Positions 28,004 to 28,031 of a stretch of DNA of 64,000 nt are shown in pieces. The position numbers and the translations under genes were made by a program. Numbering within the stretch: the first letter of the stretch is position 1; every line of letters starts with the position of its first letter. The stretch comes from Escherichia coli (GTDB lineage Bacteria > Pseudomonadota > Gammaproteobacteria > Enterobacterales > Enterobacteriaceae), in NCBI RefSeq assembly GCF_003018255.1, contig NZ_CP027440.1, one strand, 5' to 3'. The notes beneath the pieces were generated by a model. It was given only the letters and a program-made list of their open reading frames with translations, made no database searches and was not told where the DNA came from.

Positions 28004-28031
28004 CATCATCGCGTCTGGCTAATGCGATGAT
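28004..28031 (+). terminator. Hairpin after immunity gene 1 (CATCATCGCG-loop-CGCGATGATG type); copy also at ~28695-28722
   Basis: Inverted repeat catcatcgcg tctggctaa tgcgatgatg seen in sequence, repeated in each cassette. Confidence 0.5.

What the first reader, a model, noticed from the sequence alone, without database searches (positions are those of the whole stretch)
28004..28031. Conserved hairpin after each immunity gene inside the repeat unit
Seen in sequence: a perfect inverted repeat CATCATCGCG...CGCGATGATG follows immunity genes 1 and 2 (second copy near 28695-28722), and a related hairpin AAATCATCAC...GTGATGATTT follows immunity gene 3 (29382-29412). These could be terminators or mRNA-stabilising stem-loops insulating each cassette. 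Their conservation inside the recombining unit suggests function rather than chance.
Basis: seen in the sequence. Interest (0 to 1): 0.35.

Follow-up and report, generated by a model that had tools for sequence, protein, structure and literature searches.

The report
Stem-loops after Usp immunity genes
Each immunity gene of the E. coli usp toxin island is followed by a real, evolutionarily maintained stem-loop. It most likely shapes and protects transcript ends, much like the T1 stem-loop of colicin operons, so it is an ordinary kind of element even though I found no earlier description of it for this island.

Summary
The hairpins are real. Two identical copies lie at 28002-28034 and 28684-28716 (AACATCATCGC/GCGATGATGTT, 13 pairs as RNA, -17.6 kcal/mol). 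A related copy lies at 29380-29414 (GAAAATCATCAC/GTGATGATTTTC). Each starts 15-24 nt after an immunity-gene stop codon.

The locus is the known usp island (PAIusp; Usp = Hcp-ET3-4, Imu1-3) between aroP and pdhR. Copies 1 and 2 are identical only because they sit in a homogenised linker. The better evidence is cross-genus. Homologous hairpins follow the immunity genes in Salmonella, Citrobacter and Superficieibacter. The core stem is invariant, a few pairs show compensatory changes, the stem has been extended independently in different lineages, and the loop varies from 5 to 16 nt.

An "internal" type follows non-terminal immunity genes and has no U-tract. A "terminal" type (GAAAA...UUUUC) closes the array in E. 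coli, S. bongori and Citrobacter. Neither type passes a canonical terminator scan.

Most likely the terminal hairpin is a weak or partial terminator and 3'-end protector upstream of pdhR. The internal ones are probably read-through-permissive attenuators or stabilisers, functionally like the colicin E T1 stem-loop but not homologous to it. No transcript data were available, so this function is inferred. Ordinary; low-to-moderate interest.

The parts
25900..27681 (+). usp (Hcp-ET3-4): Hcp, S-type pyocin and HNH DNase fusion, 593 aa
   Evidence: Pfam PF05638, PF06958 and PF21431. RefSeq annotates it as tssD. Identified with Usp/Hcp-ET3-4 from PMC7142922 and PMC6730261.
27681..27977 (+). imu1, cognate immunity gene (RefSeq start at 27687)
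   Evidence: PF01320, E = 2e-28. RefSeq 'bacteriocin immunity protein'.
27903..27943 (+). 41-nt block at the 3' end of the immunity gene, with 0-1 differences among all three imu genes including synonymous sites. It is the 3' recombination junction of the swapped cassette. Copies are also present near 28594 and 29282.
28002..28034 (+). Hairpin A1 (internal type): AACATCATCGCGT-CTGGCTA-ATGCGATGATGTT
   Evidence: Covariance model score 66.5 bits.
28035..28135 (+). AT-rich linker followed by the untranslated 5' part of the first orphan DNase fragment
28136..28372 (+). Orphan DNase C-terminal fragment 1, HNH motif intact
   Evidence: PF21431 positions 54-124. Translation.
28375..28668 (+). imu2, orphan immunity gene
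   Evidence: PF01320, E = 4e-30.
28684..28716 (+). Hairpin A2 (internal type), stem and loop identical to A1
   Evidence: Covariance model score 68.9 bits.
28826..29065 (+). Orphan DNase C-terminal fragment 2, frameshifted with a decayed HNH motif
29066..29356 (+). imu3, the last immunity gene
   Evidence: PF01320, E = 3e-27.
29380..29414 (+). Hairpin B (terminal type): GAAAATCATCAC-GTTCTGGTTAA-GTGATGATTTTC. Homology between internal and terminal repeat units ends at its right arm.
   Evidence: Covariance model score 65.3 bits.
29415..29621 (.). Right end of the island. K-12 homology, including the pdhR promoter region, resumes at about 29622.
   Evidence: BLAST against the K-12 aroP-pdhR intergenic region.

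Best explanation
The three inverted repeats are transcript-level stem-loops in the 3' UTR and intercistronic linkers of the usp-imu1-imu2-imu3 array (PAIusp). There are two paralogous types.

The terminal type (29380-29414) has an A-tract, an AU-rich stem and a U-tract. In E. coli, S. bongori and Citrobacter it follows the last immunity gene, about 200 nt before the native pdhR promoter region. It most likely acts as a weak or partial, possibly bidirectional, terminator. It would also serve as a 3'-exonuclease barrier that ends and stabilises the island transcript and limits read-through into pdhR-aceEF-lpd.

The internal type (28002-28034, 28684-28716) has lost any U-tract. It most likely lets RNA polymerase through, and serves as an attenuator or as an RNA-stability element. 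It could protect the upstream usp-imu1 segment from 3'-to-5' decay, or give the downstream orphan-immunity segment a structured 5' end after processing. This would grade expression along the array.

Shown: the structure, its position, its conservation and its lack of canonical terminator features. Inferred: that the active form is RNA rather than single-stranded DNA, and all effects on termination or stability.
For: (1) The hairpins are stable and improbable by chance.

(2) Each starts 15-24 nt after an immunity-gene stop codon.

(3) Homologues follow the immunity genes at aroP-pdhR islands of S. bongori, S. enterica, C. freundii, an uncultured Citrobacter and a Superficieibacter species. They are also present in a Superficieibacter island at a different chromosomal site.

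(4) On 20 distinct versions, 80% of cells pair in register, against 19-54% when the partner is slid. Pairs 10-42 (C-G/A-U) and 17-35 (G-C/G.U/A-U) change on both sides. The covariation score is reached by 3 of 500 shuffles. RNAalifold independently predicts the 10-bp core.

(5) The stem is rebuilt differently in different lineages: GGGAAC/GTTCCC in Salmonella, TGTTAAC/GTTAACA in Superficieibacter, GAAAA/TTTTC in the terminal type. Inner pairs are lost where outer pairs are gained. Loops range from 5 to 16 nt with different sequences. So the stem is what is kept, not the loop or a fixed half-site spacing.

(6) Cross-genus identity of the hairpin is 0.81-0.86, against 0.67-0.71 for the non-coding DNA downstream. 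Between the internal and terminal units of the window, identity is 0.70 in the hairpin, against 0.43 before it and 0.27-0.40 after it.

(7) Non-homologous hairpins sit at the same place in relatives. Colicin E plasmids have the 16-bp T1 stem-loop starting 5 nt after the immunity stop codon, documented as a partial terminator and mRNA stabiliser (PMC2896534). About half of the 14 distant immunity loci have GC-rich or REP-like hairpins there.

(8) In compact arrays (L037, L039) the hairpin lies 5-19 nt before the SD/ATG of the next intact immunity ORF, which requires read-through.

(9) Immunity ORFs stay intact while the orphan DNase fragments decay. This implies the downstream genes are still expressed.
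Against: No transcript data were available, and none of the papers I searched mentions these hairpins.

The terminator scan does not call any of them. Stems are AU-rich, loops are 7-11 nt, and internal copies have 0-3 U in the 10-nt tail.

Covariation is modest. Most core pairs never vary, the RNAalifold covariation term is only -0.2 kcal/mol, and the sequences are related, so the shuffle counts overstate significance.

The strand is unresolved. About 3 G.U events favour the + strand and about 3 C.A mismatches would be G.U on the - strand.

Within E. coli the internal copies are visibly weakened, to -12.6 kcal/mol in three of the four other strains read (EC958, 1002W03, F11) and to -6.1 in the fourth. 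Selection on them is therefore weak or relaxed.

The 40 nt upstream are as conserved as the hairpin.
Confidence: 0.5

Rival explanations
1. The hairpins are passive relics. An ancestral terminator was copied along with each cassette. The internal copies persist only because the linkers are homogenised by gene conversion, and they have no present function.
For: Copies 1 and 2 sit in a block about 170 nt long that is 93-100% identical. Internal copies lack U-tracts and are weakened in the four other E. coli strains examined, to -12.6 and even -6.1 kcal/mol. Core covariation is slight. The upstream flank is as conserved as the hairpin.
Against: Stems were independently extended with new G-C or A-T pairs in Salmonella and Superficieibacter, reaching -23 to -27 kcal/mol. 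The hairpin survives in minimal 76-nt linkers from which the rest of the linker and the DNase fragment were deleted. The hairpin is the local conservation peak between internal and terminal units.
Confidence: 0.2
2. Each hairpin is an efficient intrinsic terminator that makes each cassette an insulated transcription unit. This is the strong form of the reader's idea, and it requires each orphan immunity gene to have its own promoter.
For: The position is right after each immunity gene. Colicin immunity genes are known, from my own knowledge of the ColE3 and ColE7 literature, to have their own promoters inside the nuclease gene. The terminal hairpin has a UUUU run.
Against: None passes the terminator scan. 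Internal tails are U-poor. No above-chance promoter is found in the orphan fragments. Compact arrays leave no room for a promoter between the hairpin and the next immunity gene.
Confidence: 0.1
3. The hairpins act at the DNA level. As a single-strand hairpin or cruciform they would stall replication or provide microhomology. That would drive cassette duplication, deletion or capture, loosely like an integron attC site but without an integrase.
For: Cassette number varies from 2 to 4 among E. coli strains. Homology between internal and terminal units ends exactly at the right arm. In L037 and L039 the right arm is fused in register to the last roughly 17 nt of a DNase gene. The strand of action is unresolved.
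Against: The mapped junction between internal and terminal versions of one allele lies in the 41-nt coding block about 70 nt upstream, not at the hairpin. The terminal type has no RYYYAAC/GTTRRRY cores. There are no extrahelical bases. The island carries no integrase or other recombinase. Similarity between the right arm and the DNase 3' end is not significant.
Confidence: 0.07
4. The hairpin is a sequence-specific binding site. It could be a palindromic operator in double-stranded DNA, or an RNA hairpin bound by a regulator (CsrA-like, or an Imu protein) that autoregulates the array.
For: The core ATCATC/GATGAT is invariant in both types. The loop CTGGNTA is shared by many versions. The ColE7 T1 loop binds CsrA. 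Imu3 binds DNA and RNA in vitro (PMC3917654).
Against: Spacing between the half-sites varies from 5 to 16 nt, and the loop sequence is replaced in several homologues. This argues against both a rigid dimer site and a loop-specific reader. A GGA triplet is present in the loop of only one S. enterica variant. Imu3 binding was reported as non-specific.
Confidence: 0.05

Closest known systems
T1 stem-loop (partial terminator) between cei and cel in E-group colicin operons (ColE2, ColE7 and others)
   Same: It is a stem-loop starting 5 nt after the stop codon of a PF01320 immunity gene for an HNH DNase toxin. It has a poor U-tract (UUUCAC) and lets part of transcription through. It is reported to attenuate the downstream gene and stabilise the mRNA.
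   Different: There is no sequence homology: GAATGCCAGTTGTTTA.../...TGAATGACTGGCATTC against AACATCATCGC/GCGATGATGTT. T1 has 16 pairs and a GGA loop that binds CsrA. Most of the loops here lack GGA. Here the downstream gene is another immunity gene or pdhR, not a lysis gene.
Canonical Rho-independent terminators, such as those at 14830, 37086 and 42379 in this same window
   Same: The terminal hairpin shares the layout of an A-tract, a stem and a T-tract, and it sits at the end of an operon.
   Different: Canonical terminators have GC-rich stems, loops of 4-7 nt and long T runs. These hairpins have 3-5 G-C pairs out of 11-13, loops of 7-11 nt and at most 4 U. They are not called by the scan.
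Intercistronic or 3' stabiliser hairpins (REP/BIME-type)
   Same: A stable stem without a U-tract sits between cistrons, and 3'-exonuclease protection is the plausible role. A REP-like GGCCGGATGATG...CATCATCCGGCC hairpin occupies the same position after the immunity gene in Pseudocitrobacter.
   Different: This is not a dispersed repeat. It is found only in the usp island: 1050 of 5426 E. coli genomes, 1-4 places each, none on plasmids.
Orphan toxin-tip and immunity arrays of CDI, Rhs and T6SS loci, and the E5 remnant with imE5 in ColE9 plasmids
   Same: A full toxin gene is followed by 5'-truncated toxin C-terminal fragments, each with its own immunity gene. Cassettes are shuffled between strains by recombination in conserved blocks.
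   Different: To my knowledge a conserved stem-loop in every linker has not been highlighted for those arrays. I did not test this.
Integron attC sites
   Same: An imperfect palindrome lies at the 3' end of each gene in a cassette array.
   Different: There are no core sites in the terminal type, no extrahelical bases and no integrase, and junctions map elsewhere.

Membership tests
PAIusp / Hcp-ET3-4 locus (context) | Hcp, S-type pyocin and colicin-type HNH DNase fusion, followed by PF01320 immunity genes, inserted between aroP and pdhR | tested here: met
   Literature: PMC7142922 and PMC6730261.
Canonical intrinsic (Rho-independent) terminator | Compact G+C-rich stem with a short loop (3-8 nt) | tested here: not met
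   Perfect loops are 11 nt (7 nt with wobble pairs). Only 3-5 G-C pairs occur in stems of 11-13 bp. The scan does not report them.
Canonical intrinsic (Rho-independent) terminator | U-rich tract directly after the stem | tested here: not met
   Internal type: 0-3 U in 10 nt across all homologues. Terminal type: UUUU only as the base of the stem, followed by CGCU. The terminal type is borderline. The internal type clearly fails.
Canonical intrinsic (Rho-independent) terminator | Transcript 3' ends at the site in vivo or in vitro | not testable with these tools
   No Term-seq or 3'-RACE data could be reached.
Colicin E T1 stem-loop | Sequence homology to T1 | tested here: not met
   The T1 sequences of four plasmids bear no similarity to the hairpins here. 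Model R1 gives no hit on L021-L024.
Colicin E T1 stem-loop | Stem-loop immediately distal to the DNase-immunity gene, read through in part | tested here: inconclusive
   Position is met. Read-through is only inferred, from compact arrays and intact downstream ORFs.
Colicin E T1 stem-loop | GGA motif in the loop (CsrA site) | tested here: not met
   The loops are CUGGCUA or CUGGUUA. GGA occurs in one S. enterica variant only.
REP/BIME or other dispersed palindromic repeat | Many copies dispersed around the genome | tested here: not met
   A 41-nt query finds 2595 places in 1050 genomes, at most 4 per genome, all in the usp island. There are 3 pattern matches in the window, all in the island.
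Integron attC | R''/R' core sites (RYYYAAC ... GTTRRRY), extrahelical bases, a nearby IntI gene, and cassette junctions at the site | tested here: not met
   The internal type matches at best 5 of 7 positions and the terminal type has none. The stems are perfect. There is no integrase ORF. The junction maps to the immunity coding block.
Any Rfam family | Covariance-model match | tested here: not met
   There are no hits at the hairpins with E up to 5.

The most novel reading that the evidence does not exclude
The linker hairpins could be active structural elements of array remodelling. Their arms, which share GATGAnnTTCAC with the 3' end of the DNase gene, would nucleate hairpin- or microhomology-mediated deletions and duplications. 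These would create, compact or expand orphan immunity arrays. The in-register fusions in L037 and L039 would be examples. This would amount to a recombinase-free analogue of integron cassette boundaries in a polymorphic-toxin locus.
Probability: 0.07. Interest if true: 0.5.

Novelty: new member of a known kind. Interest (0 to 1): 0.22.

Why it matters
usp is a widely used virulence and bacteriocin marker of extraintestinal E. coli, and here 19% of complete genomes carry it. How the cognate and orphan immunity genes are expressed relative to the toxin is unknown, because only the promoter has been studied.

If the linker hairpins set transcript ends or half-lives, they determine how much orphan immunity a strain displays. 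They would also determine whether the island's transcription leaks into pdhR-aceEF-lpd. That would be a modest, testable addition to a known system, not a new principle.

Tried and rejected
(1) Rfam scan at a permissive E-value: nothing at the hairpins.

(2) Terminator and promoter consensus scan. The hairpins are not called. A promoter-like TTTAAA-N16-GATAAT lies just 5' of each internal hairpin, but total promoter-like hits are at chance level (12 found, 12.7 expected).

(3) Dispersed-repeat idea: rejected.

(4) attC-like idea: rejected.

(5) CsrA-site idea by analogy with ColE7 T1: the loops lack GGA.

(6) Strand assignment from G.U against C.A counts: about 3 against 3, so unresolved.

(7) Origin of the arms from the DNase 3' end. 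The covariance model gives weak hits on DNase 3' ends, but shuffle-controlled local alignments are not significant, with p about 0.2. The 11-mer shared with the usp upstream region is also weak.

(8) Widening the family. The genome-collection scan with the Imu alignment returned only distant immunity genes with unrelated downstream hairpins. The metagenome scan anchored on the immunity 3' end returned 2 contigs.

(9) Literature. No paper I could search mentions a terminator, hairpin or stem-loop in PAIusp, and no 3'-end mapping for a usp-positive strain was found. Nakano et al. 2001 and Kurazono et al. 2000 were not in the library, so prior description there cannot be excluded.

Full report
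WHAT THE LOCUS IS

The finding lies in a roughly 4.1-kb island (about 25545-29621) that replaces about 180 bp of the K-12 aroP-pdhR intergenic region.

The island encodes a 593-aa fusion of Hcp, an S-type pyocin domain and a colicin-type HNH DNase (25900-27681). Three PF01320 immunity genes follow (27681-27977, 28375-28668, 29066-29356). They are separated by two 5'-truncated DNase C-terminal fragments (28136-28372 and 28826-29065).

This is the known usp pathogenicity island, PAIusp (Usp, Imu1-3). Its promoter was shown to be the divergent aroP P3 promoter (PMC7142922). In the T6SS literature Usp is listed as Hcp-ET3-4 (PMC6730261).

The island is present in 1050 of 5426 complete E. coli genomes, with 2, 3 or 4 immunity cassettes.

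THE OBSERVATION

The hairpins are real.

- A1 (28002-28034) and A2 (28684-28716) are identical: AACATCATCGC / GCGATGATGTT. That is 11 perfect pairs, or 13 as RNA, with the loop CUGGCUA.
- B (29380-29414) is GAAAATCATCAC / GTGATGATTTTC, 12 pairs with an 11-nt loop.

Its position for the second copy is about 10 nt off.

Folding energies are -17.4 to -17.8 kcal/mol, with z-scores from -3.1 to -4.8.

Only seven perfect hairpins of this size exist in the 64-kb window, against 0.17 expected, and three of them are these. Three of the others (14830, 37086, 42379) look like classical GC-rich terminators.

The hairpins start 24, 15 and 23 nt after the stop codons.

WHAT THE IDENTITY OF COPIES 1 AND 2 MEANS

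It means little on its own. An alignment of the three repeat units shows that units 1 and 2 are 93-100% identical. That block runs from the last about 70 nt of the immunity gene, through the hairpin and into the linker.

The informative comparisons are internal against terminal unit, and E. coli against other genera.

Between internal and terminal units, identity is 1.0 in a 41-nt block of the immunity gene. It falls to 0.43 just before the hairpin, rises to 0.70 in the hairpin, and falls to 0.27-0.40 after it. Homology therefore ends at the right arm.

HAIRPIN TYPE FOLLOWS POSITION, NOT ALLELE

In strain EC958 the same immunity allele occurs twice, once inside the array and once at its end. 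The two copies are identical through the DNase fragment and the gene as far as GAATGGCGGCGTTC. After that point they switch to the internal-type tail with an A hairpin, or to the terminal-type tail with a B hairpin.

So the swapped cassette ends inside the immunity gene. The hairpins belong to the array's linker scaffold.

In all five E. coli arrays read, and in S. bongori, the last immunity gene is followed by type B and the others by type A. The S. enterica arrays L026 and L027 are an exception: there the last called immunity gene is followed by a type A hairpin.

RELATIVES

Usp homologues of 70-83% identity sit at aroP-pdhR in S. bongori, S. enterica, C. freundii, an uncultured Citrobacter, a Superficieibacter species and two metagenome contigs. 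Superficieibacter HKU1 carries one at another chromosomal site.

Their immunity genes are followed by recognisable homologues of type A or type B. That gave 21 distinct versions.

On the 20-sequence alignment A2, 80% of cells pair in register, against 19-54% when the partner is slid. Pairs 10-42 (C-G or A-U) and 17-35 (G-C, G.U in C. freundii, A-U) change on both sides. The covariation score is reached by 3 of 500 shuffles. RNAalifold independently returns the 10-bp core, but with a small covariation term.

More telling is how the stem is rebuilt:

- Salmonella loses two or three inner pairs and gains GGG/CCC at the base, reaching -23 to -27 kcal/mol.
- One Superficieibacter copy gains TGTT/AACA.
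- The terminal type has GAAAA/UUUUC.
- Loops range from 5 nt (CTGAT) and 6 nt (GTTCTA) up to 16 nt.

Variable half-site spacing argues against a rigid protein operator. It argues for a folded single strand.

Cross-genus identity of the hairpin (0.81-0.86) exceeds that of the downstream non-coding DNA (0.67-0.71). It equals that of the 40 nt upstream.

The element is confined to this island and matches no Rfam family.

TERMINATOR OR NOT

None of the three is called by the consensus terminator scan. Internal copies in all taxa have 0-3 U in the ten bases after the stem.

The terminal type carries UUUU only as the base of its stem, followed by CGCU. That layout resembles a weak, symmetric terminator.

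Two observations show that the hairpin is compatible with read-through, and in some arrays requires it.

- In compact arrays (Superficieibacter sp. L037, metagenome contig L039) the hairpin is fused to the last roughly 17 nt of a DNase gene. It lies 5-19 nt before the Shine-Dalgarno sequence and ATG of the next intact immunity ORF, which leaves no room for a promoter.
- Immunity ORFs are intact in every array examined, while the orphan DNase fragments decay. Fragment 2 here is frameshifted and its HNH motif is lost.

COMPARISON WITH KNOWN SYSTEMS

Colicin E2/E7-type plasmids carry an unrelated 16-bp stem-loop that starts 5 nt after the immunity stop codon. This is the T1 stem-loop.

T1 has been described as a partial terminator that lowers lysis-gene expression. 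Its loop binds CsrA, and its integrity stabilises the downstream mRNA (PMC2896534).

About half of 14 more distant immunity loci likewise carry some unrelated hairpin after the gene. Examples are GC-rich terminators in Pectobacterium, Grimontia and some Pseudomonas, and a REP-like hairpin in Pseudocitrobacter.

The recurrence of non-homologous hairpins at one position is what is expected of a generic 3'-end element. The PAIusp hairpins work like T1 but are not members of that family. They share no sequence homology with it, mostly lack GGA in the loop, and have no lysis gene downstream.

VERDICT

The best explanation (confidence about 0.5) is a transcript-level role.

- Hairpin B would be a weak or partial terminator and 3'-end protector that closes the island transcript upstream of pdhR.
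- Hairpins A1 and A2 would be read-through-permissive attenuators or stabilisers that grade expression along the array.

The structure, its position and its conservation are shown. The molecule (RNA or single-stranded DNA), the strand and every effect on transcripts are inferred.

The main rival (about 0.2) is that the internal copies are relics carried along in homogenised linkers. This fits their weakening in the other E. coli strains read, to -12.6 and -6.1 kcal/mol.

DNA-level recombination roles, a protein or CsrA-type binding site, and efficient cassette-insulating terminators are each less likely, for the reasons given under the rival explanations.

I found no description of these hairpins in the searchable literature. 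The two original PAIusp sequence papers were not available.

The finding is a new member of a familiar kind of element, with low-to-moderate interest.

Noticed in passing
L039 (reverse-complement coordinates 940-1012); L037:6084-6160 and 6450-6526: These are compact immunity arrays. The hairpin's right arm is fused in register to the last roughly 17 nt of a DNase gene (..GATGATTTTCAC|TACAGGAGATAAcaATG). Consecutive intact immunity genes are therefore only about 70-76 nt apart, with the hairpin directly before the next ribosome-binding site. The arrangement looks like a microhomology-mediated deletion of the linker plus the orphan DNase fragment.
   Followed up: partly
window 27903-27943, about 28594-28634, about 29282-29322: A 41-nt block at the 3' end of all three imu genes has 0-1 differences, synonymous sites included. 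It is the switch point between the internal-type and terminal-type tails of one allele, so it is the 3' recombination junction of the shuffled cassette.
   Followed up: partly
window 28826-29065: The second orphan DNase fragment carries a 1-nt deletion and substitutions that destroy the HNH motif (QIHH becomes HMYH, and the C-terminus is frameshifted). All immunity ORFs remain intact.
   Followed up: yes
window 27960-27987 and 28642-28669: A sigma-70-like TTTAAA-N16-GATAAT lies just 5' of each internal hairpin. A transcript started there would begin about 8 nt before the stem. The overall count of such sites in the region is at chance level, and the -10 hexamer is only partly conserved in other genera.
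   Followed up: partly
window 25728-25738 against 28029-28039 and 28711-28721: The 11-mer GATGTTAATAA is shared by the internal hairpin's right arm and linker and by the region upstream of usp. Separately, the right arm plus linker aligns with the 5' start of imu1 (ATGCGTGATTTAAAAGATAAAATA) at p = 0.007 among 12 tests. Both signals are marginal in AT-rich DNA.
   Followed up: partly
window 37901-37929: A perfect 12-bp hairpin, ACCATCACGATG-ACCGC-CATCGTGATGGT, sits next to a run of ATCATCATCGTCATGATGATGATGG, downstream of the terminator-like hairpin at 37086. I did not identify it.
   Followed up: no
window 29764-29780: The palindrome AATTGGTAAGACCAATT lies upstream of pdhR (ATG at 29812). From my own knowledge it matches the PdhR operator consensus. 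It lies in the K-12-homologous DNA to the right of the island.
   Followed up: no
L028 (Superficieibacter sp. HKU1, CP119754.1): A usp-type array with internal-type hairpins sits at a different chromosomal site, between a sugar/MFS transporter gene and AprE/ABC exporter genes. The hairpins therefore travel with the array and not with the aroP-pdhR context. Its third immunity gene lacks the hairpin.
   Followed up: no
L021 (plasmid NZ_AP027208.1, 3426-4324): A colicin E2 plasmid carries a second, truncated module after the first lysis gene. It consists of an E3-type toxin remnant, an E3 immunity gene, a DNase-type immunity gene, a T1 stem-loop and a lysis gene. This is a plasmid counterpart of orphan cassettes.
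   Followed up: no
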